From the NCBI GenBank assembly GCA_009914755.4, contig CP068257.2:10912001-10976000 (forward strand): 64,000 nt of DNA, in the 5' to 3' direction. The position numbers were made by a program, and so were the translations under genes. The notes below the pieces were generated by a model that saw only the letters and a program-made list of their open reading frames with translations, was not told the origin of the DNA and did no database searches. Source of the DNA: the human T2T-CHM13v2.0 reference genome, Homo sapiens. Shown here in pieces: positions 31,601-62,636 of this stretch; the first letter of the stretch is position 1; every line of letters starts with the position of its first letter.

Positions 31601-31812
31601 CTGTGTATTATATACTGTACATAAAATATCAAAGTACCCAAAATATATATTGTAAACTGTACATAAAATATCAAAGTAGCCAAAATGTATATTGTATACT
31701 GTACATAAAATATAAAAGTACCCCAAATATATATTATATACTGTACACAAAATATCAAAGTACCCATAATACATATTATATACTGTACATAAAATATCAA
31801 AGGACCCAAAAT

Positions 31813-40800: not shown

Positions 40801-43800
40801 TAAAATACCCCAAATATATATTATATGCTGTACATGAAATATCAAAGTACACAAAATATGTATTATGTACTGTACATACAATATCAAAGGACCCAAAATA
40901 TATATTATATACTGTACATAAAATATCAAAATATCCAAAATATATATTATATACTGTACATAAAATACCAAAGTACCCAAAGTATATATTATATACCGTA
41001 CAAAAAATATCAAAGTAGCCAAAATATGTATTATACACTGTACATAATATATGAAAGTACCCAAACATTTATAATAAACTGTACATAAAATATCAATGTA
41101 CTCAAACTATATATTATGTGCGGTACATAACATATCAAATTACCCATACTATATAGTATATACTGTACTTAAAATATCAAAATATCCAAAATATATATTA
41201 TATACGTTACATAAACTATCAAATACACAAAGTATGTATTATATACTGTACATAAAATAGCAAAGTTCCCAAAATATGTATTATATACTGTACATAAAAT
41301 ATGAAAGTACCCAACCATTTATAATAAACTCTACATAAAATACCAAAGTACCCAAACTGTGTATTATATACTGTCCATAAAATATCAAAGTACCCAAAAT
41401 ATATATTGTAAACTGTACATAAAATATCAAAGTAGCCAAAATATATATTGTATACTGTACATAAAATATAAAATACCCCAAATATATATTATATACTGTA
41501 CATAAAATATCAAAGTACCCATAATACATATTATATACTGTACATAAAATATCAAAGGACACAAAATAAATATTATATACTGTACATAAAATATCCAAAT
41601 ACTCAAAATATATATTACATACTGTACATAAAATATCAAAGTACCCAAATTATGTATTATATACTGTACGTAAATTATCAGAGTACCCAAAATATGCATT
41701 ATATACTGTACATAAAATATGAAATTAACAAAACATTTATAATAAACTGTACATAAAATATCAAAGTACTCAAACTATATATCATATACTGTACATAAAA
41801 TATCAAAGTACCCAAACTGTGTATTATTATATACTGTATATAAAATATCACAGTACCTGAAATATATATTGTATACTGTACATAAAATATCAAAGTACCC
41901 AAAATATATACTATATACTGTCCATAAAATATGAAGGTACATCAAATATATATTATATCCTGTACATAAAATATCAAACTACACCTATTAGATATTGTGT
42001 ACTGTACATAATATATTAAATCCCCCAAATATATATTGTATACTGTATATAAAATATGAAGGTACTTCAAATTCATATTACATGCTGCACATAAAATATC
42101 AAACTACCCAAGGTATGCATTATATACTGTACATAAAATATCAAAGTACACAAATTATATATTATATACTGTACATAAAATATGAAGGTTCATCAAATAT
42201 ATTTTATATTCTGTACATAATATATCAAAGTACATCAAATATATATTATATACGGTACATAAAATATCAAAGTACCAAAAATATGTATTATATACTGTAC
42301 ATAAAATATGAAAGTAACCAAACATTTATAATAAATTGTACATAAAATATCAAAGTACTCAAACTACATATTATATACAGTATATAAAATATCAAAGTAC
42401 ACAAACTGTATATTATATACTGTACATAATATATCAAAGTACCCGAATATATAGCATACTGTACATAAAATATCAAAGTACCCAAAATATATATTGTATA
42501 CTGTACATAAAATATGAAGGTACATCGAAGATATATTATATTGTGTACATAAAATATCAAAGTACACCAAATATATATTATATGCTGTACATAATATATT
42601 AAAGTTGCCCAAATATATATTATATACTGTACATAAAATATGAAGGCACATCAAATATATAGTATATGCTGCACATAAAATATCAAAGTACCCAAAGTAT
42701 GTAATATATACTGTACATAACATATCAAAGTACCAAAAGTATATATTACCTACTGTAAATAAAATATGAAGGTACCACAAATATACATTATATTCTGTAC
42801 ATAAAATATCAAAGTACACCAAATATATACTATATACTGTACATACAATATTAAATTACCCACAATATGTATTGTATTGTGTACATAAAATATGAAAGTA
42901 ACCAAACATTTATAATAAACTGTACATAAAATATCAAAGTACTCAAACTGTATATTATATACTGTACATAAAGTATCAAAGTACCCAAACTGTGTAGTAT
43001 ACACTGTACATAAAATATCAAGGTACCCAAAATATATATTGTAAACTGTAGATACGATATCAAATTACCCAAAATATATATTATATACTGTACATAAAAT
43101 ATGAAGGCACATCCAGTATATATTATATTCTGTGCATAAAATATCAAAGTACACCAAATGTATATTATATACTGTACATAAAATATAAAACTACCCCAAG
43201 TATATATTATATACTCTACATAAAATATGAAAGTACCCAAAATATATATTATATACTGTACATAAAATATCAAAGTACCCATAGTATGTATTATATCCTG
43301 TACATAAAATATGAAGGTACATCAAATATATATTATATTCTGCACATAAAATATCATATTACACCAAATATATATTATATACTGTACATAAAATATGAAG
43401 GTACATCAAATGTATATTATATGCTGCACATAAAATATCAAAGTCCCCAAAGTTTGTATTATATACTGTACATAAAATATCAAAGTATCCAAAGTGTATA
43501 TTATATACTGTACATAAAATATGAAGGTACATCCGATACATATTATATTCTGTACATAAAATATCAAAATACACCAAGTATATATTATATACTGTACATA
43601 AAATATTAAATTACCCGAAATATGTATTGTATACTGTACATAAAATATGAAAGTAACCAAACATTTATAATAAACTGTACATAAAATATCAAAGTACTCA
43701 AACTACATATTATATACAGTATATAAAATATCAAAGTACCCAAACTGTATATTATATACTGTACATACTATATCAAAGTACCCGAATATATAGCATACTG

Positions 43801-45512
43801 TACATAAAATATCAAAGTACCCAAAATATATATTGTACACTGCACATAAAATATGAAGCTACATCAAAGATATATTATATTCTGTACATAAAATATCAAA
43901 GTACACCAAGTATATATTATATGCTGTACATAATATATTAAAGTCGACCAAATATATATTACATACTGTACAAAAAATATGAAGGTACATCAAATATATA
44001 TTATATGCTGCACATAAAATATCAAAGTACCCAAAGTATGTATTATATACTGTACATAAAATATCAAAATACCCAAAGTATATATTATATACTATACATA
44101 CAATATAAAATACCCCAAATATATATTATATGCTGTACATAAAATATCAAAGTACACAAAATATGTATTATGTACTGTACATAAAATATCAAAGGACCGA
44201 AAATATATATTATATACTGTACATAAAATATCAAAATACCCAAAATATATACTATATACTGTACATAAAATACCAAAGTACCCAAAGTATATATTATATA
44301 CCGTACAAAAAATATCAAAGTAGCCAAAGTATGTATTATACACTGTACATAATATATGAAAGTACCCAAACATTTATAATAAACTGTACATAAAATATCA
44401 ATGTACTCAAACTATATATTATGTTCGGTACATAACATATCAAAGTACCCATACTATATAGTATATACTGTACTTAAAATATCAAAATACCCAAAATATA
44501 TATTATATACGTTACATAAATTATCCAATACCCAAAGTATGTATTATATACTGTACTTAAAATAGCAAAGTTCCCAAAATATGTATTATATACTGTACAT
44601 AACAAATGAAAGTACCCAACCATTTATAGTAAACTCTACATAAAATACCAAAGTACCCAAACTGTGTATTATATACTGTCCATAAATTATCAAAGTACCC
44701 AAAATATATATTGTAAACTGTACATAAAATATCAAAGTAGCCAAAATGTATATTGTATACTGTACATAAAATATAAATGTACCCCAAATATATATTATAT
44801 ACTGTACACAAAATATCAAAGTACCCATAATACATATTATATACTGTACATAAAATATCAAAGGACCCAAAATAAACATTATATACTGTACATAAAATAT
44901 CCAAATACTCAAAATATATATTACATACTGTACATAAAATATCAAAGTACCCAAATTATGTATTATATACTGTACGTAAAATATCAGAGTACCCAAAATA
45001 TGCATTATATACTGTACATAAAATATGAAAGTAACAAAACATTTATAATAAACTGTACATAAAATATCAAAGTACTAAAACTATATATCATATACTGTAC
45101 ATAAAATATCAAAGTACCCAAACTGTGTATTATTATATACTGTCCATAAAATATCAAGGTACCTAAAATATATATTGCATACTGTACATAAAATATCAAA
45201 GTACCCAAAATATATACTATATACTGTACATAAAATATGAAGGTACATCAAATATATATTATATCCTGTACATAAAATATCAAAGTACACCTATTATATA
45301 TTGTGTACTGTACATAACATATTAAATCACCCAAATATATATTGTATACTGTATATAAAATATGAAGGTACTTCAAATATATATTATATGCTGCACATAA
45401 AATATCAAAGTACCCAAAGTATGCATTACATACTGTACATAAAATATCAAAGTACACAAATTATATATTATATAATGTACATAAAATATGTAGGTTCATA
45501 AAATATATTTTA
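31813..45512. repeat. HSat1A large block, copy 2 of the 31,812-bp-offset duplication
   Basis: Same evidence as for block 1-13700. The constant offset of 31,812 bp is not a multiple of 42 (31812/42 = 757.4), which is consistent with accumulated small indels inside units. Confidence 0.9.
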
Positions 45513-48500
45513 TATTCTGTACATAATATATCAAAGTACATCAAATATATATTATATACGGTACATAAAATATCAAAGTACCCAAAATATGTATTATTTA
45601 CTGTTCATAAAATATGAAAGTAACCAAACATTTATAATAAACTGTACATAAAATATCAAAGTACTCAATCTACATATTATATACAGTATATAAAATATCA
45701 AAGTACACAAATTGTATATTATATACTGTACATAATATATCAAAGTACCCGAATATATAGCATACTGTACATAAAATATCAAAGTACCCAAAATATATAT
45801 TGTATACTGTACATAAAATATGAAGGTACATCGAAGATATATTATATTGTGTACATAAAATATCAAAGTACACCAAATATATATTATATGCTGTACATAA
45901 TATATTAAAGTTGCCCATGTATACATTTTATACTGTACATAAAATATGAAGGCACATCAAATATATAGTATATGCTGCACATAAAATATCAAAGTACCCA
46001 AAGTATGTAATATATACTGTACATAATATATCAAAGTACCAAAAGTATATATTACATACTGTAAATAAAATATGAAGGTACCTCAAATATACATTATATT
46101 CTGTACATAAAATATCAAAGTACACCAAATATATACTATATACTGTACATAAAATATTAAATTACCCACAATATGTATTTTATTGTGTACATAAAATATG
46201 AAAGTAACCAATCATTTATAATAAACTGTACATAAAATATCAAAGTACTCAAACTGTATATTATATACTGTACATAAAGTATCAAAGTACCCAAACTGTG
46301 TAGTATATACTGTACATAATATATCAAGGTACCCAAAATATATATTGTAAACTGTAGATAAAATATCAAATTACCCAAAATATATATTATATACTGTACA
46401 TAAAATATGAAGGCACATCCAGTATATATTATATTCTGTACATAAAATATCAAAGTACACCAAATGTATATTATATACTGTACATAAAATATAAAAGTAC
46501 CCCAAGTATATATTATATACTCTACATAAAATATGAAAGTACCCAAAATATATATTATATACTGTACATAAAATATCAAAATACCCATAGTATGTATTAT
46601 ATCCTGTACATAAAATATGAAGGTACATCTAATATATATTATATTCTGCACATAAAATATCATATTACACCAAATATATATTATATACTGTACATAAAAG
46701 ATGAAAGTACATCAAATATATATTATATGCTGCACATAAAATATAAAAGTCCCCAAAGTTTGTATTATATTCTGTACATAAAATATCAAAGTATCCAAAG
46801 TGTATATTATATACTGTACATAAAATATGAAGGTACATCCAATACATATTATATTCTGTACGTAAAATATCAAAGTACACCAAGTATATATTATATACTG
46901 TACATAAAATATTAAATTACCCAAAATATGTATTGTATACTGTACATAAAATATGAAAGTATCCAAACATTTATAATAAACTGTACATAAAATATCAAAG
47001 TACTCAAACTGTGTATTATATACTGTACATAAAGCATCCAAGTACCCAAACTGTGTAGCATATACTGTACATAAAATATCAAGGTACCCAAAATATATAG
47101 TGTAAACTGTAGATAAAATATCAAAGTACCCAAAGTATACATTATATACTCTACATAAAATATCAAAATACGCAAAATATATATTGTATACTGTACATAA
47201 AATATCAAAGTATCCAAACTATATATTATGTACTGTACATAAAATATCAAAGTACCCAAAGTGTGTATTATACACTGCATATAAAATATGAAGGTACATA
47301 AAATATATATTGTATTCTGTACATAAAATATCAAATTACACCAAATATATATTATATAGTGTACATAATATATTAAAGTCTACCAAATATATATTATATA
47401 CTGTACATAAAATATGAAGGTACATCAAATATATATTATACGCTGCACATAAAATATCAAAGTACCCAAAGTATGTATTATATACTGTACATAAAATATC
47501 AAAGTACCCAAAGTCTATATTATATACTGTACATAAAATATAAAATACCCCAAATATATATTATATGCTGTACATGAAATATCAAAGTACACAAAATATG
47601 TATTATGTACTGTACATACAATATCAAAGGACCCAAAATATATATTATATACTGTACATAAAATATCAAAATATCCAAAATATATATTATATACTGTACA
47701 TAAAATACCAAAGTACCCAAAGTATATATTATATACCGTACAAAAAATATCAAAGTAGCCAAAATATGTATTATACACTGTACATAATATATGAAAGTAC
47801 CCAAACATTTATAATAAACTGTACATAAAATATCAATGTACTCAAACTATATATTATGTGCGGTACATAACATATCAAATTACCCATACTATATAGTATA
47901 TACTGTACTTAAAATATCAAAATATCCAAAATATATATTATATACGTTACATAAACTATCAAATACACAAAGTATGTATTATATACTGTACATAAAATAG
48001 CAAAGTTCCCAAAATATGTATTATATACTGTACATAAAATATGAAAGTACCCAACCATTTATAATAAACTCTACATAAAATACCAAAGTACCCAAACTGT
48101 GTATTATATACTGTCCATAAAATATCAAAGTACCCAAAATATATATTGTAAACTGTACATAAAATATCAAAGTAGCCAAAATATATATTGTATACTGTAC
48201 ATAAAATATAAAATACCCCAAATATATATTATATACTGTACATAAAATATCAAAGTACCCATAATACATATTATATACTGTACATAAAATATCAAAGGAC
48301 ACAAAATAAATATTATATACTGTACATAAAATATCCAAATACTCAAAATATATATTACATACTGTACATAAAATATCAAAGTACCCAAATTATGTATTAT
48401 ATACTGTACGTAAATTATCAGAGTACCCAAAATATGCATTATATACTGTACATAAAATATGAAATTAACAAAACATTTATAATAAACTGTACATAAAATA

Positions 48501-48699
48501 TCAAAGTACTCAAACTATATATCATATACTGTACATAAAATATCAAAGTACCCAAACTGTGTATTATTATATAGTGTATATAAAATATCACAGTACCTGA
48601 AATATATATTGTATACTGTACATAAAATATCAAAGTACCCAAAATATATACTATATACTGTCCATAAAATATGAAGGTTCATCAAATATATATTATATC

Positions 48700-50858
48700 C
48701 TGTACATAAAATATCAAACTACACCTATTAGATATTGTGTACTGTACATAATATATTAAATCCCCCAAATATATATTGTATACTGTATATAAAATATGAA
48801 GGTACTTCAAATTCATATTACATGCTGCACATAAAATATCAAACTACCCAAGGTATGCATTATATACTGTACATAAAATATCAAAGTACCCAAAGTGTAT
48901 ATTATATACTGTACATAAAATATGAAGTTTCATCAAATATATTTTATATTCGGCACATAAAATATCAAAGTACATCAAATATATATTATATACTGTACAT
49001 AAAATATCAAAGTACCAAAAATATGTATTATATACTGTACATAAAATATGAAAGTAACCATTTATAATAAACTGTACATAAAATATCAAAGTACTCAAAC
49101 TACATATTATATACAGTATATAAAATGTCAAAGTACCCAAACTGTATATTATATACTGTACATAATATATCAAAGTACCCGAATATATAGCATACTGTAC
49201 ATAAAATATCAAAGTACCCAAAATATATATTGTATACTGTACATAAAATATGAAGGTACATGAAAGATATATTATATTCTGTACATAAAATCTCAAAGTA
49301 CACCAAATATATATTATATGCTGTACATAATATATTAAAGTTGCCCAAATATATATTATATACTGTACATAAAATATGAAGGTACATCAAATATATATTA
49401 TATGCTGCACATAAAATATCAAAGTACCCAAAGTATGTATTATATACTGTACATAAAATATCAAAGTACCCAAATTATATATTATATACTGTACATAAAA
49501 TATAAAATACCCCAAATATATATTATATACTGTACATAAAATATCAAAGTACACAAAATATGTATTATATACTGTACATAAAATACCAAAGGACCCAAAG
49601 TATATATTATATACCGTACAAAAAATATCAAAATACCCAAAATATATATCATATACTGTACATAAAATATGAAAGTAACAAATTATTTATAATAAACTCT
49701 ACATAAAATATCAATGTACTCAAACTATATATTATGTGCGGTACACAAGATATCAAAGTACCCATACTATATAGTATATACTGTACTTAAAATATCAAAA
49801 TACCCAGAATATATATTATATACGTTAAATAAACTATCAAATACCCAAAGTATGTATTATATACTGTACATAAAACAGCAAAGTTCCCAAAATATATATT
49901 ATATACTGTACATAAAATATGAAGGAAAATCAAACATATATTATATTCTGTACATAAAATATAAAACTACCCCAAATATATATTATATACTGTACATGAA
50001 ATATAAAACTACCCCAAATATATATTATATACTGTACATAAAATATCAAAGTACCCAAAATATATATTATATACTGTACATAAAATATCAAAGTACACAA
50101 ACTTTATATTATAGAGTGTACATAAAATATCAAAGTAACAAAAATATATATTGTATACTGTAAATAAAATATCAATATACCCAAAATATATATTATGTAC
50201 TGTACATAAAATATCAAAGTACCCAAAATACGTATTATATACTGTACATAAAATATGAAAGTACATCAAATATATATTATATTCTGTATATAAAATATCA
50301 AATTACACCAAATATATTTTATAAATTGTACATGAAATATGAAGGTACATCAAATATATATTATATGCTGCACATAAAATATCAAAGTACTCAAAGTATG
50401 TATTATATATTGTACATAAAATATCAAAGTACTCAAAGTACATATTATATAGTGTACATGAAATATGAAGTTACATCAAATATATATTGTATTCTGTACA
50501 TAAAATATCAAAGTACACTAAATATATATTATATACTGTACTTAAAATATAAAATACCCCAAATATACATTATATACTGTACATAAAATATCAAAGTACC
50601 CAAAATATATATTATATACTGAACTTAAAATATCAAAGGACCCAAAATATATATTATACACTGTATATAAAATACCATAATAAGCAAAATATGTGTCATA
50701 TACTGTACATAAAATATGAAAGTACCCAAACATTTATAATCAACTGTACATAAAATATCAAAGTACTAAAACTATATATTATGTGCTGTATATAAAATAT
50801 CAAAGTACCCATACTATATATTATATACTGTACAAAAAATATCAAAATATATATTATA
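48700..50858. repeat. Degenerating edge of the HSat1A array, next to the alpha-satellite junction
   Basis: The sub-HOR marker pattern breaks down. The 48735 ORF is truncated relative to its paralogues, a novel divergent stretch at 49714-50163 contains 'cggtacacaagatatc' and 'aaataccataataagcaaaatatgtgtcata', and 42-bp units are more variable up to the junction. Confidence 0.6.
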
Positions 50859-51420
50859 TGAATTCCGTGCTTCCAACTAAATCCTCAAAGCAATCCAAAT
50901 ATCCACTTGCAGATTCCACAAAAAGAGGGTTTCAAATCTGCTCTATCAATAGCAAGGTTCAACTCTGTTAGTATAGGACACATATCACCAACAAGTTTCT
51001 GAGAATGCTTCTGTCTACTTTCTATGGGAGGATATTTCCTTTTTCACTGTAGGCGACAAAGCGATCAAATTGTCCATTCCATATACTACAAAAAGTGTGT
51101 TTCAAACCTGCTTTATGAAAGGTAATATTCATCTCTATGTGTTGAATGGAAATATCAGAAAGAAATTGCTGAGAATTCTGCTGTCTACATTTTATATGAA
51201 TTCCCGCTTCCAACGAAATCCTCAAATCAATCCAAATATCCACTTGCAGATTCCACAAAAAGAGTGTTTCAAAACTGCTCTATCAATAGAAAGGTTCAAC
51301 TCTTTTAGTTGAGAACACACATCACAAACAAGTTTCTGAGAATGCTTCTCTCTCGCTTTTATGGGAAGACGTTTCCTTTCCACCAAAGGCATCAAAGTGT
51401 TCCAAATGTCCACTTCCAGA
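50859..51420 (-). repeat. Diverged edge alpha monomers (about 3.3 monomers) in phase with the HOR
   Basis: Aligned by eye to the homologous HOR positions 56469-57030, the first two monomers differ at about 10% of sites. Examples are 'gaattccgtgcttccaactaaatcc' against 'gaattcccgcttccaacgaaatcc', and 'ttgtccattccatatactac' against 'atgtccacttccacaaactac'. The third monomer differs at about 3%. From about 51421 onward identity to the HOR is essentially complete. Confidence 0.75.
51202..51218 (-). promoter_or_regulatory. CENP-B box (17 bp, on the minus strand) in an edge alpha monomer
   Basis: The plus strand reads 'tcccgcttccaacgaaa', the reverse complement of 'tttcgttggaagcggga'. It fits the essential pattern nTTCGnnnnAnnCGGGn. 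Confidence 0.85.
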
Positions 51421-51542
51421 TTCTACCAAAAGAGTGTTTCAAACGTGCTCATAGTAAGGGAATGTTCAACTCTGTGACTTGAATGCAGATATCACCAAGT
51501 AGTTTCTAATAGTGCTTCTGTCTAGATTTTAGATGATGATAT

Positions 51543-51559
51543 TCCCGTTTCCAACGAAA
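51543..51559 (-). promoter_or_regulatory. CENP-B box (recurs every 1,870 bp, e.g. at about 53413 and 55283)
   Basis: The plus strand reads 'tcccgtttccaacgaaa', the reverse complement of 'tttcgttggaaacggga', which is the canonical CENP-B box. Confidence 0.85.
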
Positions 51560-52051
51560 TCGTTAGAGCTATCCAAATGTCCAGTTACAGTTTCTACCAA
51601 AAGGGTGTTTCCAAATTGCTGCATCAAAAGAAAGGTTCAACTCTGTTAGTTGAGGACACACATCACAAAGAAGTTTGTGAGAATGCTTCTGTCTAGATTT
51701 TGTATGACGATATTCCCTTTTCCAACGATATCGTTAAAGCAATCTAAATATCAATTTGCAGAATCCACAAAAATAGAGTTTCAAAGCTGCTCTGTAAAAA
51801 GAAAGGTTCCACTCTGTTAGCTGAGTACACACATCACAAACTTGTTTCTGAGAATCCTTCTGTCTCGTTTTTATGGGAAGATATTTACTTTTCCACCGTA
51901 GGCATCAAAGCGCTCCAAATGTCCACATCCAGATACTCCAGAAAGAGTGTTTCAAACCTGCTCTATGAAAGGGAATCTTCAACTCTATGAGTTGAATGCA
52001 GACATCAGAAAGAAATTTCTGAGAATGCTGCTGTCTACCTTTTATTTGAAT

Positions 52052-52068
52052 TCCCGCTTCCAACGAAA
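52052..52068 (-). promoter_or_regulatory. CENP-B box
   Basis: The plus strand reads 'tcccgcttccaacgaaa'. All essential positions (CCCG...T....CGAA on this strand) are conserved. Confidence 0.85.
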
Positions 52069-52393
52069 TCCTCCAAGCTATCCAAATATCCACCTGCATT
52101 TTCCACAACAAGAGTGTTTCAAAACTGCTCTATCAATAGAAATGTTCAACTCCTTTGGCTGGGTACACACATCACAAACAAGTTTCTGAGAATGCTTCTG
52201 TCTAGTTTTTATGGGAAGACATTCCCTTTTTCACCAAAGGCATCAAAGCGCTCCAAATGTCCACTTCCAGACACTACAAAAAGAGTGTTTCAAACGTGCT
52301 CTAAGAAAACGAATGTTCAACTCTGTGACTTGAATGCAGATATCACAGAGTAGTTTCTGAGAGGGCTTCTGTCTAGATTTTAGATGATGATAT

Positions 52394-52410
52394 TCCCGTT
52401 TCCAACGAAA
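52394..52410 (-). promoter_or_regulatory. CENP-B box
   Basis: The plus strand reads 'tcccgtttccaacgaaa'. Confidence 0.85.
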
Positions 52411-52731
52411 TCATTAGAGCTATCCAAATATCCACTTACAGTTTCTACAAAAAGAGTGTTTCCAAACTGCTGCATCAAAAGAGAGGTTCCACTCTGTTAG
52501 CTGAGTACACACATCACAAACTTGTTTCTCAGAATCCTTCTGTCTCGTTTTTATGGGAAGATATTTACTTTTTCACCGTAGGTATCAAAGCGCTCCAAAT
52601 GTCCACATCCAGATAGTACAGAAAGAGTTTTTCAAACCTGCTCTATGAAAGGGAATCTTCAACTCTATGAGTTGAATGCAGACATCAGAAAGAAATTTCT
52701 GAGAATGCTGCTGTCTACCTTTTATTTGAAT

Positions 52732-52748
52732 TCCCGCTTCCAACGAAA
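52732..52748 (-). promoter_or_regulatory. CENP-B box
   Basis: The plus strand reads 'tcccgcttccaacgaaa'. Confidence 0.85.
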
Positions 52749-53071
52749 TCCTCCAAGCTATCCAAATATCCACTTGCAGATTCCACAAAAAGAGTGTTTC
52801 AAAACTGCTCTCTATCAATGGCAAAGTTCAACTCTGTTAGTTGAGGACACATATCACCAACAAGTTTCTGAGAATGCTTCTGTCTATTTTTTATGGGAAG
52901 ATATTTCCTTTTTCACCGTAGGCGTCAAGGCGATCGAAATGTCCACTTCCACAAACTACAAAAAGAGTGTTTCAAACCTGCTCTATGAAAGGCCATGTTC
53001 ATCTCTATGAGTTGAATGGAAATATCCGAAAGAAATTTCTGGGAATGCTGCTGTCTAGTGTTTATACGAAT

Positions 53072-53088
53072 TCCCGCTTCCAACGAAA
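53072..53088 (-). promoter_or_regulatory. CENP-B box
   Basis: The plus strand reads 'tcccgcttccaacgaaa'. In the next-but-one monomer at about 51715 the homologous site reads 'tcccttttccaacgata', which has lost CCCG and CGAA and so is a dead box. Confidence 0.85.
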
Positions 53089-53290
53089 TCCTCAAAGCAA
53101 TCCAAATATCCACTTGCAGAATCCACAAAAAGAGTGTTTCAAAACTGCTCTATCAATAGAAAGGTTCAACTCTTTTAGTTGAGTACACACATCACGAACA
53201 AGTTTCTGAGAATGCTTCTGTCTGGCTTTTATTGGAAGACGTTTCCTTTTCACCAAAGGCATCAAAGTGCTCCAAATGTCCACTTCCAGA

Positions 53291-55160
53291 TTCTACCAAA
53301 AGAGTGTTTCAAACGTGCTCATAGTAAGGGAATGTTCAACTCTGTGACTTGAATGCAGATATCACCAAGTAGTTTCTAATAGTGCTTCTGTCTAGATTTT
53401 AGATGATGATATTCCCGTTTCCAACGAAATCGCTAGAGCTATCCAAATATCCAGTTACAGTTTCTACCAAAAGGGTGTTTCCAAATTGCTGCATCAAAAG
53501 AAAGGTTCAACTCTGTTAGTTGAGGACACACGTCACAAAGAAGTTTGTGAGAATGCTTCTGTCTAGATTTTGTATGACGATATTCCCTTTTCCAACGATA
53601 TCGTTAAAGCAATCTAAATATCAATTTGCAGAATCCACAAAAATAGAGTTTCAAAGCTGCTCTGTAAAAAGAAAGGTTCCACTCTGTTAGCTGAGTACAC
53701 ACATCACAAACTTGTTTCTGAGAATCCTTCTGTCTCGTTTTTATGGGAAGATATTTACTTTTTCACCGTAGGCATCAAAGCGCTCCAAATGTCCACATCC
53801 AGATACTCCAGAAAGAGTGTTTCAAACCTGCTCTATGAAAGGCAATCTTCAACTCTATGAGTTGAATGCAGACATCAGAAAGAAATTTCTGAGAATGCTG
53901 CTGTCTACCTTTTATTTGAATTCCCGCTTCCAACGAAATCCTCCAAGCTATCCAAATATCCACCTGCATTTTCCACAACAAGAGTGTTTCAAAACTGCTC
54001 TATCAATAGAAATGTTCAACTCCTTTGGCTGGGTACACACATCACAAACAAGTTTCTGAGAATGCTTCTGTCTAGTTTTTATGGGAAGACGTTCCCTTTT
54101 TCACCAAAGGCATCAAAGCGCTCCAAATGTCCACTTCCAGACACTACAAAAAGAGTGTTTCCAACGTGCCCTAAGAAAGCGAATGTTCAACTCTGTGACT
54201 TGAATGCAGATATCACAAAGTAGTTTCTGAGAGGGCTTCTGTCTAGATTTTAGATGATGATATTCCCGTTTCCAACGAAATCATTAGAGCTATCCAAATA
54301 TCCACTTACAGTTTCTACAAAAAGAGTGTTTCCAAACTGCTGCATCAAAAGAGAGGTTCCACTCTGTTAGCTGAGTACACACATCACAAACTTGTTTCTC
54401 AGAATCCTTCTGTCTCGTTTTTATGGGAAGATATTTACTTTTTCACCGTAGGCATCAAAGCGCTCCAAATGTCCACATCCAGATACTCCAGAAAGAGTGT
54501 TTCAAACCTGCTCTATGAAAGGGAATCTTCAACTCTATGAGTTGAATGCAGACATCAGAAAGAAATTTCTGAGAATGCTGCTGTCTACCTTTTATTTGAA
54601 TTCCCGCTTCCAACGAAATCCTCCAAGCTATCCAAATATCCACTTGCAGATTCCACAAAAAGAGTGTTTCAAAACTGCTCTCTATCAATGGCAAAGTTCA
54701 ACTCTGTTAGTTGAGGACACATATCACCAACAAGTTTCTGAGAATGCTTCTGTCTATTTTTTATGGGAAGATATTTCCTTTTTCACCGTAGGCGTCAAGG
54801 CGATCGAAATGTCCACTTCCACAAACTACAAAAAGAGTGTTTCAAACCTGCTCTATGAAAGGCCATGTTCATCTCTATGAGTTGAATGGAAATATCCGAA
54901 AGAAATTTCTGGGAATGCTGCTGTCTAGTGTTTATACGAATTCCCGCTTCCAACGAAATCCTCAAAGCAATCCAAATATCCACTTGCAGAATCCACAAAA
55001 AGAGTGTTTCAAAACTGCTCTATCAATAGAAAGGTTCAACTCTTTTAGTTGAGTACACACATCACGAACAAGTTTCTGAGAATGCTTCTGTCTGGCTTTT
55101 ATTGGAAGACGTTTCCTTTTCACCAAAGGCATCAAAGCGCTCCAAATGTCCACTTCCAGA
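53291..55160 (-). repeat. Alpha HOR copy 2 (variant type b)
   Basis: 1,870 bp downstream of copy 1. Diagnostic variants are 'ttcttccaaaag...gtgctcaaagtaaggg' (55161 onward) and 'gtttccaacgtgccctaagaaagcg'. Confidence 0.85.
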
Positions 55161-57030
55161 TTCTTCCAAAAGAGTGTTTCAAACGTGCTCAAAGTAAGGG
55201 AATGTTCAACTCTGTGACTTGAATGCAGATATCACCAAGTAGTTTCTAATAGTGCTTCTGTCTAGATTTCAGATGATGATATTCCCGTTTCCAACGAAAT
55301 CGTTAGAGCTATCCAAATATCCACTTACAGTTTCTACAAAAAGAGTGTTTCCAAACTGCTGCATCAAAAGAAAGGTTCAACTCTGTTAGTTGAGGACACA
55401 CATCACAAAGAAGTTTGTGAGAATGCTTCTGTCTAGATTTTGTATGACGATATTCCCTTTTCCAACGATATCGTTAAAGCAATCTAAATATCAATTTGCA
55501 GAATCCACAAAAATAGAGTTTCAAAGCTGCTCTGTAAAAATAAAGGTTCCACTCTGTTAGCTGAGTACACACATCACAAACTTGTTTCTGAGAATCCTTC
55601 TGTCTCGTTTTTATGGGAAGATATTTACTTTTTCACCGTAGGCATCAAAGCGCTCCAAATGTCCACATCCAGATACTCCAGAAAGACTGTTTCAAACCTG
55701 CTCTATGAAAGGGAATCTTCAACTCTATGAGTTGAATGCAGACATCAGAAAGAAATTTCTGAGAATGCTGCTGTCTACCTTTTATTTGAATTCCCGCTTC
55801 CAACGAAATCCTCCAAGCTATCCAAATATCCACTTGCATTTTCCACAAAAAGAGTGTTTCAAAACTGCTCTATCAATAGAAATGTTCAACTCCTTTAGCT
55901 GGGTACACACATCACAAACAAGTTTCTGAGAATGCTTCTGTCTAGTTTTTATGGGAAGACGTTCCCTTTTTCACCAAAGGCATCAAAGCGCTCCAAATGT
56001 CCACTTCCAGACACTACAAAAAGAGTGTTTCAAACGTGCTCTAAGAAAGCGAATGTTCAACTCTGTGACTTGAATGCAGATATCACAAAGTAGTTTCTGA
56101 GAGGGCTTCTGTCTAGATTTTAGATGATGATATTCCCGTTTCCAACGAAATCATTAGAGCTATCCAAATATCCACTTACAGTTTCTACAAAAAGAGTGTT
56201 TCCAAACTGCTGCATCAAAAGAGAGGTTCCACTCTGTTAGCTGAGTACACACATCACAAACTTGTTTCTCAGAATCCTTCTGTCTCGTTTTTATGGGAAG
56301 ATATTTACTTTTTCACCGTAGGCATCAAAGCGCTCCAAATGTCCACATCCAGATACTCCAGAAAGAGTGTTTCAAACCTGCTCTATGAAAGGGAATCTTC
56401 AACTCTATGAGTTGAATGCAGACATCAGAAAGAAATTTCTGAGAATGCTGCTGTCTACCTTTTATTTGAATTCCCGCTTCCAACGAAATCCTCCAAGCTA
56501 TCCAAATATCCACTTGCAGATTCCACAAAAAGAGTGTTTCAAAACTGCTCTCTATCAATGGCAAAGTTCAACTCTGTTAGTTGAGGACACATATCACCAA
56601 CAAGTTTCTGAGAATGCTTCTGTCTATTTTTTATGGGAAGATATTTCCTTTTTCACCGTAGGCGTCAAGGCGATCGAAATGTCCACTTCCACAAACTACA
56701 AAAAGAGTGTTTCAAACCTGCTCTATGAAAGGCGATGTTCATCTCTATGAGTTGAATGGAAATATCCGAAAGAAATTTCTGGGAATGCTGCTGTCTAGTT
56801 TTTATATGAATTCCCGCTTCCAACGAAATCCTCAAAGCAATCCAAATATCCACTTGCAGAATCCACAAAAAGATTGTTTCAAAACTGCTCTATCAATAGA
56901 AAGGTTCAACTCTTTTAGTTGAGTACACACATCACAAACAAGTTTCTGAGAATGCTTCTGTCTGGCTTTTATTGGAAGACGTTTCCTTTTCACCAAAGGC
57001 ATCAAAGTGCTCCAAATGTCCACTTCCAGA
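55161..57030 (-). repeat. Alpha HOR copy 3 (variant type c)
   Basis: Diagnostic variants are 'gtggtcgaagtaaggg' (57051-57070), 'ggcgatgttcatctc', 'tagtttttatatgaattccc', 'agactgtttc' and 'tcctttagctgg'. Confidence 0.85.
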
Positions 57031-58896
57031 TTCTTCCAAAAGAGTGTTTCAAACGTGGTCGAAGTAAGGGAATGTTCAACTCTGTGACTTGAATGCAGAT
57101 ATCACCAAGTAGTTTCTAATAGTGCTTCTGTCTACATTTTAGATGATGATATTCCCGTTTCCAACGAAATCGTTAGAGCTATCCAAATATCCAGTTACAG
57201 TTTCTACCAAAAGGGTGTTTCCAAATTGCTGCATCAAAAGAAAGGTTCAACTCTGTTAGTTGAGGACACACATCACAAAGAAGTTTGTGAGAATGCTTCT
57301 GTCTAGATTTTGTATGACGATATTCCCTTTTCCAACGATATCGTTAAAGCAATCTAAATATCAATTTGCAGAATCCACAAAAATAGAGTTTCAAAGCTGC
57401 TCTGTAAAAAGAAAGGTTCCACTCTGTTAGCTGAGTACACACATCACAAACTTGTTTCTGAGAATCCTTCTGTCTCGTTTTTATGGGAAGATATTTACTT
57501 TTCCACCGTAGGCATCAAAGCGCTCCAAATGTCCACATCCAGATACTCCAGAACGAGTGTTTCAAACCTGCTCTATGAAAGGGAATCTTCAACTCTATGA
57601 GTTGAATGCAGACATCAGAAAGAAATTTCTGAGAATGCTGCTGTCTACCTTTTATTTGAATTCCCGCTTCCAACGAAATCCTCCAAGCTATCCAAATATC
57701 CACCTGCATTTTCCACAACAAGAGTGTTTCAAAACTGCTCTATCAATAGAAATGTTCAACTCCTTTGGCTGGGTACACACATCACAAACAAGTTTCTGAG
57801 AATGCTTCTGTCTAGTTTTTATGGGAAGACGTTCCCTTTTTCACCAAAGGCATCAAAGCGCTCCAAATGTCCACTTCCAGACACTACAAAAAGAGTGTTT
57901 CCAACGTGCCCTAAGAAAGCGAATGTTCAACTCTGTGACTTGAATGCAGATATCACAAAGTAGTTTCTGAGAGGGCTTCTGTCTAGATTTTAGATGATGA
58001 TATTCCCGTTTCCAACGAAATCATTAGAGCTATCCAAATATCCACTTACAGTTTCTACAAAAAGAGTGTTTCCAAACTGCTGCATCAAAAGAGAGGTTCC
58101 ACTCTGTTAGCTGAGTACACACATCACAAACTTGTTTCTCAGAATCCTTCTGTCTCGTTTTTATGGGAAGATATTTACTTTTTCACCGTAGGCATCAAAG
58201 CGCTCCAAATGTCCACATCCAGATAGTACAGAGTTTTTCAAACCTGCTCTATGAAAGGGAATCTTCAACTCTATGAGTTGAATGCAGACATCAGAAAGAA
58301 ATTTCTGAGAATGCTGCTGTCTACCTTTTATTTGAATTCCCGCTTCCAACGAAATCCTCCAAGCTATCCAAATATCCACTTGCAGATTCCACAAAAAGAG
58401 TGTTTCAAAACTGCTCTCTATCAATGGCAAAGTTCAACTCTGTTAGTTGAGGACACATATCACCAACAAGTTTCTGAGAATGCTTCTGTCTATTTTTTAT
58501 GGGAAGATATTTCCTTTTTCACCGTAGGCGTCAAGGCGATCGAAATGTCCACTTCCACAAACTACAAAAAGAGTGTTTCAAACCTGCTCTATGAAAGGCC
58601 ATGTTCATCTCTATGAGTTGAATGGAAATATCCGAAAGAAATTTCTGGGAATGCTGCTGTCTAGTGTTTATACGAATTCCCGCTTCCAACGAAATCCTCA
58701 AAGCAATCCAAATATCCACTTGCAGAATCCACAAAAAGAGTGTTTCAAAACTGCTCTATCAATAGAAAGGTTCAACTCTTTTAGTTGAGTACACACATCA
58801 CGAACAAGTTTCTGAGAATGCTTCTGTCTGGCTTTTATTGGAAGACGTTTCCTTTTCACCAAAGGCATCAAAGTGCTCCAAATGTCCACTTCCAGA
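57031..58896 (-). repeat. Alpha HOR copy 4 (type a; 1,866 bp, carries a 4-bp deletion)
   Basis: 'agatagtacagagtttttcaaacc' at about 58221-58244, against 'agatagtacagaaagagtttttcaaacc' in copy 1 at 52611. The loss of 'aaag' shortens the copy to 1,866 bp. Confidence 0.85.
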
Positions 58897-60766
58897 TTCT
58901 ACCAAAAGAGTGTTTCAAACGTGCTCATAGTAAGGGAATGTTCAACTCTGTGACTTGAATGCAGATATCACCAAGTAGTTTCTAATAGTGCTTCTGTCTA
59001 GATTTTAGATGATGATATTCCCGTTTCCAACGAAATCGCTAGAGCTATCCAAATATCCAGTTACAGTTTCTACCAAAAGGGTGTTTCCAAATTGCTGCAT
59101 CAAAAGAAAGGTTCAACTCTGTTAGTTGAGGACACACGTCACAAAGAAGTTTGTGAGAATGCTTCTGTCTAGATTTTGTATGACGATATTCCCTTTTCCA
59201 ACGATATCGTTAAAGCAATCTAAATATCAATTTGCAGAATCCACAAAAATAGAGTTTCAAAGCTGCTCTGTAAAAAGAAAGGTTCCACTCTGTTAGCTGA
59301 GTACACACATCACAAACTTGTTTCTGAGAATCCTTCTGTCTCGTTTTTATGGGAAGATATTTACTTTTCCACCGTAGGCATCAAAGCGCTCCAAATGTCC
59401 ACATCCAGATACTCCAGAACGAGTGTTTCAAACCTGCTCTATGAAAGGGAATCTTCAACTCTATGAGTTGAATGCAGACATCAGAAAGAAATTTCTGAGA
59501 ATGCTGCTGTCTACCTTTTATTTGAATTCCCGCTTCCAACGAAATCCTCCAAGCTATCCAAATATCCACCTGCATTTTCCACAACAAGAGTGTTTCAAAA
59601 CTGCTCTATCAATAGAAATGTTCAACTCCTTTGGCTGGGTACACACATCACAAACAAGTTTCTGAGAATGCTTCTGTCTAGTTTTTATGGGAAGACGTTC
59701 CCTTTTTCACCAAAGGCATCAAAGCGCTCCAAATGTCCACTTCCAGACACTACAAAAAGAGTGTTTCCAACGTGCCCTAAGAAAGCGAATGTTCAACTCT
59801 GTGACTTGAATGCAGATATCACAAAGTAGTTTCTGAGAGGGCTTCTGTCTAGATTTTAGATGATGATATTCCCGTTTCCAACGAAATCATTAGAGCTATC
59901 CAAATATCCACTTACAGTTTCTACAAAAAGAGTGTTTCCAAACTGCTGCATCAAAAGAGAGGTTCCACTCTGTTAGCTGAGTACACACATCACAAACTTG
60001 TTTCTCAGAATCCTTCTGTCTCGTTTTTATGGGAAGATATTTACTTTTTCACCGTAGGCATCAAAGCGCTCCAAATGTCCACATCCAGATACTCCAGAAA
60101 GAGTGTTTCAAACCTGCTCTATGAAAGGGAATCTTCAACTCTATGAGTTGAATGCAGACATCAGAAAGAAATTTCTGAGAATGCTGCTGTCTACCTTTTA
60201 TTTGAATTCCCGCTTCCAACGAAATCCTCCAAGCTATCCAAATATCCACTTGCAGATTCCACAAAAAGAGTGTTTCAAAACTGCTCTCTATCAATGGCAA
60301 AGTTCAACTCTGTTAGTTGAGGACACATATCACCAACAAGTTTCTGAGAATGCTTCTGTCTATTTTTTATGGGAAGATATTTCCTTTTTCACCGTAGGCG
60401 TCAAGGCGATCGAAATGTCCACTTCCACAAACTACAAAAAGTGTGTTTCAAACCTGCTCTATGAAAGGCCATGTTCATCTCTATGAGTTGAATGGAAATA
60501 TCCGAAAGAAATTTCTGGGAATGCTGCTGTCTAGTGTTTATACGAATTCCCGCTTCCAACGAAATCCTCAAAGCAATCCAAATATCCACTTGCAGAATCC
60601 ACAAAAAGAGTGTTTCAAAACTGCTCTATCAATAGAAAGGTTCAACTCTTTTAGTTGAGTACACACATCACGAACAAGTTTCTGAGAATGCTTCTGTCTG
60701 GCTTTTATTGGAAGACGTTTCCTTTTCACCAAAGGCATCAAAGCGCTCCAAATGTCCACTTCCAGA
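58897..60766 (-). repeat. Alpha HOR copy 5 (type b)
   Basis: Carries the same diagnostic variants as copy 2, e.g. 'gtgctcaaagtaaggg' at about 60791 and 'tttcagatgatg'. Confidence 0.85.
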
Positions 60767-62636
60767 TTCTTCCAAAAGAGTGTTTCAAACGTGCTCAAAG
60801 TAAGGGAATGTTCAACTCTGTGACTTGAATGCAGATATCACCAAGTAGTTTCTAATAGTGCTTCTGTCTAGATTTCAGATGATGATATTCCCGTTTCCAA
60901 CGAAATCGTTAGAGCTAAGCAAATATCCAGTTACAGTTTCTACCAAAAGGGTGTTTCCAAATTGCTGCATCAAAAGAAAGGTTCAACTCTGTTAGTTGAG
61001 GACACACATCACAAAGAAGTTTGTGAGAATGCTTCTGTCTAGATTTTGTATGACGATATTCCCTTTTCCAACGATATCGTTAAAGCAATCTAAATATCAA
61101 TTTGCAGAATCCACAAAAATAGAGTTTCAAAGCTGCTCTGTAAAAAGAAAGGTTCCACTCTGTTAGCTGAGTACACACATCACAAACTTGTTTCTGAGAA
61201 TCCTTCTGTCTCGTTTTTATGGGAAGATATTTACTTTTCCACCGTAGGCATCAAAGCGCTCCAAATGTCCACATCCAGATACTCCAGAACGAGTGTTTCA
61301 AACCTGCTCTATGAAAGGGAATCTTCAACTCTATGAGTTGAATGCAGACATCAGAAAGAAATTTCTGAGAATGCTGCTGTCTACCTTTTATTTGAATTCC
61401 CGCTTCCAACGAAATCCTCCAAGCTATCCAAATATCCACCTGCATTTTCCACAACAAGAGTGTTTCAAAACTGCTCTATCAATAGAAATGTTCAACTCCT
61501 TTGGCTGGGTACACACATCACAAACAAGTTTCTGAGAATGCTTCTGTCTAGTTTTTATGGGAAGACGTTCCCTTTTTCACCAAAGGCATCAAAGCGCTCC
61601 AAATGTCCACTTCCAGACACTACAAAAAGAGTGTTTCCAACGTGCCCTAAGAAAGCGAATGTTCAACTCTGTGACTTGAATGCAGATATCACAAAGTAGT
61701 TTCTGAGAGGGCTTCTGTCTAGATTTTAGATGATGATATTCCCGTTTCCAACGAAATCATTAGAGCTATCCAAATATCCACTTACAGTTTCTACAAAAAG
61801 AGTGTTTCCAAACTGCTGCATCAAAAGAGAGGTTCCACTCTGTTAGCTGAGTACACACATCACAAACTTGTTTCTCAGAATCCTTCTGTCTCGTTTTTAT
61901 GGGAAGATATTTACTTTTTCACCGTAGGCATCAAAGCGCTCCAAATGTCCACATCCAGATACTCCAGAAAGAGTGTTTCAAACCTGCTCTATGAAAGGGA
62001 ATCTTCAACTCTATGAGTTGAATGCAGACATCAGAAAGAAATTTCTGAGAATGCTGCTGTCTACCTTTTATTTGAATTCCCGCTTCCAACGAAATCCTCC
62101 AAGCTATCCAAATATCCACTTGCAGATTCCACAAAAAGAGTGTTTCAAAACTGCTCTCTATCAATGGCAAAGTTCAACTCTGTTAGTTGAGGACACATAT
62201 CACCAACAAGTTTCTGAGAATGCTTCTGTCTATTTTTTATGGGAAGATATTTCCTTTTTCACCGTAGGCGTCAAGGCGATCGAAATGTCCACTTCCACAA
62301 ACTACAAAAAGAGTGTTTCAAACCTGCTCTATGAAAGGCCATGTTCATCTCTATGAGTTGAATGGAAATATCCGAAAGAAATTTCTGGGAATGCTGCTGT
62401 CTAGTTTTTATATGAATTCCCGCTTCCAACGAAATCCTCAAAGCAATCCAAATATCCACTTGCAGAATCCACAAAAAGAGTGTTTCAAAACTGCTCTATC
62501 AATAGAAAGGTTCAACTCTTTTAGTTGAGTACACACATCACAAACAAGTTTCTGAGAATGCTTCTGTCTGGCTTTTATTGGAAGACGTTTCCTTTTCACC
62601 AAAGGCATCAAAGCGCTCCAAATGTCCACTTCCAGA
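60767..62636 (-). repeat. Alpha HOR copy 6 (type c)
   Basis: Carries the same diagnostic variants as copy 3, e.g. 'gtggtcgaagtaaggg' at about 62651 and 'tagtttttatatgaattccc' at about 62401. Confidence 0.85.

What the first reader, a model, noticed from the sequence alone, without database searches (positions are those of the whole stretch)
51421..53290. CENP-B box distribution: 5 of 11 monomers, alternating, with one adjacent pair of box-less monomers and one dead box
Within one HOR, boxes fitting nTTCGnnnnAnnCGGGn (read on the minus strand) occur in the monomers at about 51543, 52052, 52394, 52732 and 53072. The interleaved monomers instead carry 'tttcaccgtaggc', 'tttcaccaaaggc' or 'ttttccaccgtaggc' at the homologous position. 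That alternation indicates an underlying dimeric (A-type/B-type) monomer organisation, as in suprachromosomal families 1 and 2. An odd 11-mer forces two same-type neighbours; here the monomer at about 51715 carries a mutated box, 'tcccttttccaacgata'. A homogeneous HOR with regularly spaced intact CENP-B boxes is the signature of an active ('live') centromeric array. The boundary with HSat1A would then be a core-to-pericentromere transition.
Basis: partly seen in the sequence, partly recalled or inferred. Interest (0 to 1): 0.55.

Follow-up and report, generated by a model that had tools for sequence, protein, structure and literature searches.

The report
Known chr13/21 centromere repeat, CENP-B boxes

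Summary
The window holds a 42-bp HSat1A array (5–50859) that abuts minus-strand alpha satellite (50860–64000). The alpha satellite is organised as a 1870-bp, 11-monomer higher-order repeat (HOR) whose copies are 98.4–99.8% identical. The CENP-B core motif occurs 35 times, all on the minus strand, against 0 expected. There are five boxes per HOR at the stated positions, and a fixed two-substitution dead box lies at 51714–51730.

Published class consensus sequences give five D1 monomers (live boxes), five D2 monomers (A-boxes) and one D1-head/D2-tail hybrid that carries the dead box. This is suprachromosomal family 2; SF1 and SF3 are rejected.

Primers, the EcoRI 5mer/4mer/2mer pattern and the inactive "monomer 10" motif from Ohzeki et al. 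2002 all match. The HOR is therefore α21-I (D13Z1/D21Z1, S2C13/21H1L), the active-array repeat type of chromosomes 13 and 21.

Two refinements follow. The odd monomer is a recombinant hybrid. "Live" status cannot be read from sequence: these copies sit at the extreme array edge, directly against HSat1A, with two diverged monomers at the junction.

Verdict: already known, low interest.

The parts
5..50859 (.). HSat1A (SAR) 42-bp satellite array flanking the alpha satellite
   Evidence: TRF finds period 42, 1214.6 copies, consensus ATTATATACTGTACATAAAATATCAAAGTACCCAAAATATAT. The last unit is truncated at ...atatattatat|gaattcc.
50860..51532 (-). Junction-proximal partial HOR copy. It starts at HOR consensus position ~1190, inside a box/EcoRI site. 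The first ~340 bp are 86-93% identical to the HOR consensus; identity then rises to 96-100%. The box next to the junction is degenerate; the intact box is at 51202-51218.
50860..64000 (-). Alpha-satellite array in 1870-bp 11-mer HORs (α21-I / D13Z1/D21Z1 type). There are 6 full copies plus 2 partial copies, and it runs off the window end.
   Evidence: TRF period 171. HOR copies are 98.4-99.8% identical. Published primers and the EcoRI pattern match.
51423..51593 (-). D1 monomer with live CENP-B box TTTCGTTGGAAACGGGA at 51543-51559
   Evidence: It is the same monomer as 53293-53463, which scores D1 89.5%.
51594..51764 (-). D1/D2 hybrid monomer. The D1-type head carries the dead box TATCGTTGGAAAAGGGA at 51714-51730 (T->A in TTCG, C->A in CGGG). 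The tail is D2-type.
   Evidence: At D1/D2 diagnostic columns the pattern is 1111.11111121111|222222222. Head is 88.1% D1 and tail 90.5% D2. The motif is identical to the 'monomer 10' motif that lacks CENP-B binding in Ohzeki 2002.
51765..51935 (-). D2 monomer, A-box CTACGGTGGAAAAGTAA at 51885-51901 (pJα motif with 1 mismatch)
51936..52102 (-). D1 monomer with live CENP-B box TTTCGTTGGAAGCGGGA at 52052-52068; an EcoRI site overlaps the box
52103..52273 (-). D2 monomer, A-box CTTTGGTGAAAAAGGGA at 52223-52239
52274..52444 (-). D1 monomer with live CENP-B box TTTCGTTGGAAACGGGA at 52394-52410
52445..52615 (-). D2 monomer, A-box CTACGGTGAAAAAGTAA at 52565-52581
52616..52782 (-). D1 monomer with live CENP-B box TTTCGTTGGAAGCGGGA at 52732-52748; EcoRI site
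52783..52955 (-). D2 monomer, A-box CTACGGTGAAAAAGGAA at 52905-52921. This is the only perfect pJα consensus match in the HOR.
52956..53122 (-). D1 monomer with live CENP-B box TTTCGTTGGAAGCGGGA at 53072-53088; EcoRI site
53123..53292 (-). D2 monomer, A-box CTTTGGTGAAAAGGAAA at 53242-53258

Best explanation
The region is one unit of the human α21-I alpha-satellite higher-order repeat (D13Z1/D21Z1, T2T name S2C13/21H1L). This is the 11-monomer, 1.87-kb SF2 repeat that forms the centromeric core arrays of chromosomes 13 and 21. Here it is read on the minus strand, at the array edge where it abuts HSat1A.

On the minus strand the unit is D1-D2 dimers interrupted once: D1 D2 [D1/D2 hybrid] D1 D2 D1 D2 D1 D2 D1 D2. 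Each of the five D1 monomers carries a sequence-competent CENP-B box, so boxes recur about every 340 bp, i.e. every second monomer or nucleosome.

The eleventh monomer is a recombinant with a D1 head and a D2 tail. It is the product expected when an in-register unequal exchange between a D1 and a neighbouring D2 removes one monomer length from an even-numbered dimeric repeat (inferred). Its B-type box carries two substitutions at essential positions (TTCG->ATCG, CGGG->AGGG), and this motif was shown experimentally not to bind CENP-B.

From established knowledge, not tested here: unmethylated boxes bind CENP-B, which supports CENP-A/CENP-C chromatin. In the artificial-chromosome assay these very boxes are required for de novo centromere assembly on this very repeat.

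Shown here: motif positions, SF2 classification, hybrid structure, identity with α21-I, homogeneity, and conservation of the boxes. Inferred: how the hybrid arose, and functional occupancy.
For: 35 boxes against 0 expected, all on one strand, 5 per 1870 bp.

The two monomer classes alternate. Classification is D1 87.6-91.1% and D2 90.1-92.3%, and the hybrid is shown by diagnostic columns and by half-monomer identities (using consensus sequences from the PMC4496801 supplement).

[quoted passage not shown] In the window, EcoRI spacing is 850/680/340. Primers T1, T3 and SA4 match exactly. T2 and SA3 match with one mismatch each. H1, H2 and H3 differ only at the two designed substitutions, apart from one extra mismatch at the 5' end of the trimmed H1 sequence, where I had guessed the length of the non-templated tail. 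The mutant motif in those primers equals the window's 51714-51730 motif.

The literature places D13Z1/D21Z1 in SF2 as a live array and annotates S2C13/21H1L as the active HOR on chr13 and as a canonical 11-mer on chr21.

Box constraint: among the five paralogous D1 monomers 56 of 173 columns vary, but only 1 of 17 box columns and 0 of 9 essential positions do (P about 0.009 and 0.027). The A-boxes of the D2 monomers vary freely, 6 of 17.

In 21 independent metagenome contigs carrying human DNA (at least 98.5% identical), 107 of 108 live positions are intact and 25 of 25 dead boxes are identical.

Box density is 2.67/kb, against 2.61/kb reported for the CHM13 chr13 CDR.
Against: No human reference genome or epigenomic track is available in these tools. 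Chromosome assignment (13 or 21), the position within the array, and CENP-A/CENP-B occupancy are therefore untested.

The window shows only 13 kb of HOR, at the extreme edge next to HSat1A. Kinetochore chromatin occupies only about 145-216 kb of these arrays, and CENP-B binding is methylation-sensitive, so these particular boxes may be unoccupied.

The dead-box count in the metagenome contigs is ascertained, because the contigs were found with that motif.

The direction of the recombination events (deletion or duplication) is inferred from similarity patterns only.
Confidence: 0.92

Rival explanations
1. The sequence is the α21-I HOR type, but this copy block is not part of the functional core. 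It could be an epigenetically silent array edge, or a small detached block of S2C13/21H1L embedded in HSat1A. In that case its CENP-B boxes would be methylated and unoccupied, and 'live' would apply to the repeat family only.
For: The HOR directly abuts HSat1A. The outermost ~340 bp are 7-14% diverged from the HOR consensus and carry a degenerate box. CDRs cover only ~216 kb (chr13) or ~145 kb (chr21) of the arrays. The annotation name 'hor_13_3' implies that several HOR blocks are annotated on chr13. Only 13 kb of HOR is visible before the window ends.
Against: From 51193 onward the copies are 96-100% identical to the consensus, and full copies are 98.4-99.8% identical to each other, as expected of the main homogeneous array. 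All 35 boxes keep both CpGs. The reported CHM13 chr13 CDR starts at 15.61 Mb, only ~50 kb from a position (15.56 Mb) already annotated as active HOR, so the kinetochore may lie near one array edge. This last point is a lead, not verified.
Confidence: 0.5
2. It is a different 11-monomer SF2 HOR (for example D8Z2 of chromosome 8, or a chromosome 15 array) that happens to share the 5-box pattern.
For: Other SF2 live arrays exist, and D8Z2 is also SF2. That D8Z2 is largely an 11-mer of similar length is recalled from memory and was not checked.
Against: Eight α21-I-specific primer sequences from PMC2173396 match: three exactly, two with one mismatch, and three differing only at the designed positions (with one extra 5'-end mismatch in the trimmed H1). 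The EcoRI 5mer/4mer/2mer map and the exact 'monomer 10' dead motif also match. The HSat1A flank fits chr13/21, where satellite I clone pTRI-6 maps. A large HSat1A array is reported on chr13.
Confidence: 0.02
3. The alternation reflects SF1 (J1/J2) dimers, or a degraded SF3 pentamer, rather than SF2.
For: SF1 also alternates A and B boxes.
Against: J1 and J2 identities are 73-81% against 88-92% for D1 and D2. No monomer has J or W as its best class.
Confidence: 0.01

Closest known systems
α21-I 11mer alphoid HOR (D13Z1/D21Z1; S2C13/21H1L), as in Ikeno et al. 1994 and Ohzeki et al. 2002 (PMC2173396)
   Same: 11 monomers and 1.87 kb. EcoRI 850/680/340 fragments. Five CENP-B boxes on every other monomer. 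One natural inactive motif, TATCGTTGGAAAAGGGA. Published primers match.
   Different: Nothing substantive. Copies differ from each other by 0.2-1.6%, and two primers show a single mismatch each. The copy here is a genomic edge copy next to HSat1A, not the cloned p11-4 unit.
Suprachromosomal family 2 alpha satellite (D1/D2 dimers)
   Same: Monomers classify as D1 (B-box) and D2 (A-box) in near-perfect alternation. A solitary D1/D2 hybrid monomer per HOR is described as common in SF2 HORs (PMC4496801).
   Different: None. It is a regular member.
HSat1A blocks adjoining or interrupting active HOR arrays on chromosomes 3 and 4 (Altemose et al., bioRxiv 2021.07.12.452052)
   Same: An HSat1A array abuts homogeneous active-type HOR directly, with no monomeric layer in between.
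   Different: Here the HOR is the chr13/21 11-mer, not the chr3 or chr4 HOR. Only one side of the HSat1A block is visible, so insertion cannot be distinguished from flanking.

Membership tests
Alpha satellite SF2 (D1/D2 dimeric) | Tandem ~171-bp monomers, head to tail | tested here: met
   TRF period 171, 77.3 copies. Monomer lengths are 167-173 bp.
Alpha satellite SF2 (D1/D2 dimeric) | Monomers best match the D1 and D2 class consensus sequences (AJ130751/AJ130752) | tested here: met
   Five monomers score D1 87.6-91.1% and five score D2 90.1-92.3%. The next best class is 4-8 points lower.
Alpha satellite SF2 (D1/D2 dimeric) | Near-perfect D1-D2 (B/A box) alternation | tested here: met
   10 of 11 monomers alternate. 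The one exception is a D1/D2 hybrid. PERCON box scores are +16 to +17 for B and -9 to -16 for A.
α21-I / D13Z1/D21Z1 / S2C13/21H1L HOR | 11-monomer unit cut by EcoRI into 5mer, 4mer and 2mer | tested here: met
   GAATTC spacing is 850/680/340 in every copy, as described.
α21-I / D13Z1/D21Z1 / S2C13/21H1L HOR | Sequence identity with the cloned unit (published primers) | tested here: met
   T1, T3 and SA4 match exactly. T2 and SA3 have 1 mismatch each. H1, H2 and H3 differ only at the two engineered positions (plus one 5'-end mismatch in the trimmed H1).
α21-I / D13Z1/D21Z1 / S2C13/21H1L HOR | Five CENP-B boxes plus an inactive two-substitution motif in one monomer | tested here: met
   compared
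α21-I / D13Z1/D21Z1 / S2C13/21H1L HOR | Location at the centromere of chromosome 13 or 21 | not testable with these tools
   No human reference is available. The HSat1A flank is consistent with chr13 (large array) or chr21.
Functional CENP-B box | Fits YTTCGTTGGAARCGGGA, with core nTTCGnnnnAnnCGGGn | tested here: met
   All 35 sites read TTTCGTTGGAA[A/G]CGGGA.
Functional CENP-B box | CpGs unmethylated and CENP-B bound in vivo | not testable with these tools
   This needs methylation calls or CENP-B CUT&RUN. Binding is methylation-sensitive.
Active ('live') centromeric array | Homogeneous HOR copies (about 98% or more) | tested here: met
   98.4-99.8% identity between copies
Active ('live') centromeric array | CENP-A enrichment or a hypomethylated CDR at the locus | not testable with these tools
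   Only literature on the array type is available.
SF1 (J1/J2) alpha satellite | Monomers best match J1/J2 | tested here: not met
   J1 and J2 score 73-81%, never the best class.
SF3 (W1-W5 pentameric) alpha satellite | Monomers best match W1-W5 in pentameric order | tested here: not met
   W classes score 74-84%, never the best class.

The most novel reading that the evidence does not exclude
The dead box may be kept dead by selection rather than by drift. If the hybrid monomer's box were live, two CENP-B sites would lie 171 bp apart and break the ~340-bp phasing of CENP-B with nucleosomes. Three observations are consistent with this. Both substitutions are transversions at essential positions, not CpG decay. 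The motif is fixed in all 7 window copies and in 25 of 25 independent copies. The HOR's internal 4-mer block looks like the 5-mer block with exactly this monomer excised. A second, related reading concerns the boundary: the abrupt, truncated HOR/HSat1A junction may mark an HSat1A insertion or expansion breakpoint at the edge of a live array, as on chr3 and chr4.
Probability: 0.15. Interest if true: 0.3.

Novelty: already known. Interest (0 to 1): 0.1.

Why it matters
It matters little as a discovery. The five-live-plus-one-dead CENP-B box layout of the α21-I 11-mer was described in 1994 and functionally dissected in 2002. That repeat is the standard substrate for human artificial chromosomes, and T2T annotations already name the array.

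The useful result is a clean identification of the window as the chr13/21 core HOR abutting HSat1A. The additions are that the odd monomer is a D1/D2 hybrid and that the junction with HSat1A is abrupt.

Tried and rejected
(1) I tried to assign chromosome 13 versus 21 and the position of the window relative to the CDR. The tools hold no human reference or epigenomic tracks. Literature gave only the CHM13 CDR coordinates and one coordinate inside the active array, so this stays unresolved.

(2) An exact search for the 36-bp HSat1A/alpha junction in metagenome contigs found nothing. The junction has no independent confirmation.

(3) Metagenome contigs found with the dead-box monomer included 42 that were only 82-97% identical to the window HOR or aligned only over a short stretch. 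The 47-kb contig BNJS01001333.1 has low self-periodicity and few intact boxes, and looks like noisy long-read sequence. The other contigs look like short-read chimeras or structural variants. I did not pursue them.

(4) My first monomer segmentation was phased on the box. It mixed the tail of one canonical monomer with the head of the next. I redid it in the canonical phase (box at positions 35-51) before classification.

(5) Blastn against the doubled consensus first picked long out-of-register alignments at ~80% identity. I redid the step choosing by bit score.

(6) SF1, SF3 and SF5 classification, and the D8Z2 alternative, were considered and rejected.

(7) Variation between HOR copies is too low to test box conservation (43 variable columns in 1870, about 2 expected inside the boxes). 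The test was done across paralogous D1 monomers instead.

Full report
**Observation**

The window has two parts. A 42-bp HSat1A (SAR) array runs from 5 to about 50859. Alpha satellite runs from 50860 to the window end (TRF; junction read).

The CENP-B core pattern TTCGNNNNANNCGGG occurs 35 times. Every match is on the minus strand and inside the alpha satellite, and none is expected in shuffles. The 17-mers read TTTCGTTGGAA[A/G]CGGGA. They recur at spacings of 509/342/338/340/341 bp, which sum to 1870 bp.

Monomer lengths are 171,171,167,171,171,171,167,173,167,170,171, so the unit is an 11-mer. The monomer at 51714–51730 carries TATCGTTGGAAAAGGGA (minus strand) in all seven copies.

**What it is**

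The 11 monomers fall into two classes. Identity is 77–90% and 71–97% within a class and only 65–73% between classes.

I took the published consensus sequences for the 12 alpha-satellite monomer classes from the supplement of Shepelev et al. 2015 (PMC4496801). I then re-cut the monomers in the canonical phase, with the box at positions 35–51. The results were:

| Monomers | Best class | Identity | Box |
|---|---|---|---|
| Five | D1 | 87.6–91.1% | the five live CENP-B boxes |
| Five | D2 | 90.1–92.3% | A-box |
| One (51594–51764) | ambiguous | D1 84.0, R1 83.3, R2 83.1, D2 82.5 | dead B-type box |

J1/J2 and W1–W5 are never the best class. This is SF2, not SF1 or SF3.

The ambiguous monomer is a clean hybrid. 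Of the 16 D1/D2 diagnostic columns in its first 68 alignment columns, 14 are D1-type. One of the other two is the C→A box substitution itself. All nine diagnostic columns from 108 onward are D2-type. The head is 88.1% D1 against 74.7% D2, and the tail is 90.5% D2 against 80.0% D1.

More precisely, one D1–D2 dimer has been collapsed into a single D1/D2 recombinant monomer. The literature says such solitary hybrids are common in SF2 HORs.

**Identity with a known repeat**

Ohzeki et al. 2002 (PMC2173396) describe the chromosome 21 α21-I 11mer with these features:
- "five CENP-B boxes";
- boxes "on every other monomer unit";
- EcoRI fragments of 4mer, 2mer and 5mer;

They converted all five live boxes to that motif to make the mutant repeat, which failed to form artificial chromosomes.

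The window matches on each point:
- EcoRI sites are spaced 850/680/340 bp in every copy.
- Primers T1, T3 and SA4 match exactly; T2 and SA3 match with one mismatch each.
- Mutagenic primers H1, H2 and H3 match except at the two engineered positions (plus one 5'-end mismatch in the trimmed H1).
- The engineered motif TCCCTTTTCCAACGATA is exactly the window's 51714–51730 sequence.

The repeat is therefore α21-I, also called D13Z1/D21Z1 and S2C13/21H1L. The literature lists it as SF2 and live, as the "active α-satellite higher-order repeat" on CHM13 chr13, and as the canonical 11-mer of chr21. The HSat1A flank fits chr13, which has a ~5-Mb array, or chr21, which has a minor presence of the same satellite I subfamily. 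I could not decide between the two.

**Evidence that the boxes are constrained**

The six full and one partial HOR copies are 98.4–99.8% identical. That is too similar to test conservation between copies.

The five paralogous D1 monomers allow the test. Across them, 56 of 173 columns vary, but only 1 of 17 box columns varies (the tolerated R position) and 0 of 9 essential positions do. The hypergeometric probabilities are about 0.009 and 0.027. The A-boxes of the D2 monomers vary at 6 of 17 columns.

As an independent sample, a search of metagenome contigs with the dead-box monomer found 63 contigs. These are human DNA contaminating unrelated samples. Of them, 21 are at least 98.5% identical to the window HOR. 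In those 21, 107 of 108 live-box positions fit the core, and the dead motif is identical in 25 of 25. The dead-motif count is partly ascertained, because the contigs were found with that motif.

**How it works**

From established knowledge rather than from tests here:
- CENP-B binds the unmethylated 17-bp box through its N-terminal domain and dimerises.
- On this repeat the boxes are required for de novo CENP-A chromatin and artificial-chromosome formation.
- Spacing of about 340 bp places one box per two monomers.

The window's density of 2.67 boxes per kb matches the 2.61/kb reported for the CHM13 chr13 CDR.

What cannot be shown here is occupancy. The kinetochore domain covers only about 216 kb on chr13 or about 145 kb on chr21. 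CENP-B binding is also lost on methylated boxes.

**The boundary**

The HOR abuts HSat1A directly at 50859/50860. The HOR is truncated at about consensus position 1190, inside a box/EcoRI site. The box there is degenerate (GAATTCCGTGCTTCCAACTAAA).

The first ~340 bp are only 86–93% identical to the HOR consensus. Identity rises to 96–100% from 51193 onward. There is no divergent-HOR or monomeric layer.

These copies are the outermost of the array. Whether they carry CENP-A is open, and this is my main rival reading: the repeat type is live, but these copies may be silent.

**Internal history of the HOR (side result, inferred)**

In box-anchored phase, monomer 52384–52554 is 97–100% identical to the head of 51704–51874 and 89–100% identical to the tail of 51533–51703. 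Its neighbours pair up in the same way (52555–52721 with 51875–52041 at 97%; 52213–52383 with 53232–53402 at 85%).

So the EcoRI 4-mer block equals the 5-mer block minus exactly one monomer length, the part containing the dead box. The 11-mer is 5+4+2 monomers. The likely history is two successive one-monomer unequal exchanges.

**Verdict**

Everything essential was already published, so novelty is "already known" and interest is low.

Noticed in passing
window 1-13000 vs 31813-44812: Inside the HSat1A array, at least 13 kb recurs at an offset of 31,812 bp with over 97% identity in every 1-kb bin. TRF sub-arrays recur at the same offset (2003/33815, 5354/37166, 7181/38993, 8790/40602). This is a large segmental duplication, or a very long higher-order period, within HSat1A.
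   Followed up: partly
window 51533-53402 (one HOR): The 11-mer is internally 5+4+2 monomers, which are the EcoRI 850/680/340 fragments. The box-phased monomer 52384-52554 equals the head of 51704-51874 plus the tail of 51533-51703. The 4-mer block is therefore the 5-mer block with exactly the dead-box monomer length removed.
   Followed up: partly
window 50854-51192: The two alpha monomers nearest HSat1A are 86-93% identical to the HOR consensus, against 96-100% further in. The HOR is truncated inside a CENP-B box/EcoRI site, and that box is degenerate. No monomeric alpha layer separates the HOR from HSat1A.
   Followed up: yes
window 57143-59008: This HOR copy is 1866 bp instead of 1870 bp. 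A 4-bp deletion lies between the boxes at 58004 and 58338 (spacing 334 rather than 338). Some copies also lose an XbaI site.
   Followed up: no
window 51533-64000: HOR copies three units apart are the most similar: copies 2 and 5 at 99.79%, 1 and 4 at 99.30%, 3 and 6 at 99.04%. The mean is ~99.0% for adjacent copies. This is a weak hint of a ~5.6-kb, three-HOR duplication unit.
   Followed up: no
window 52905-52921 (and each HOR copy): There is exactly one perfect match per HOR to the pJα consensus TTCCTTTTYCACCRTAG (recalled from memory), in one D2 monomer. Two other D2 monomers have one mismatch. The A-box at 51885 is polymorphic between copies (GGTGG in 5 copies, GGTGA in 2).
   Followed up: partly
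loci L001-L063 (metagenome contigs): 63 contigs from gut, marine and other metagenome assemblies contain the human α21-I dead-box monomer. 21 of them are 98.5-99.5% identical to this HOR. This is human DNA contamination assembled into public metagenomes.
   Followed up: partly
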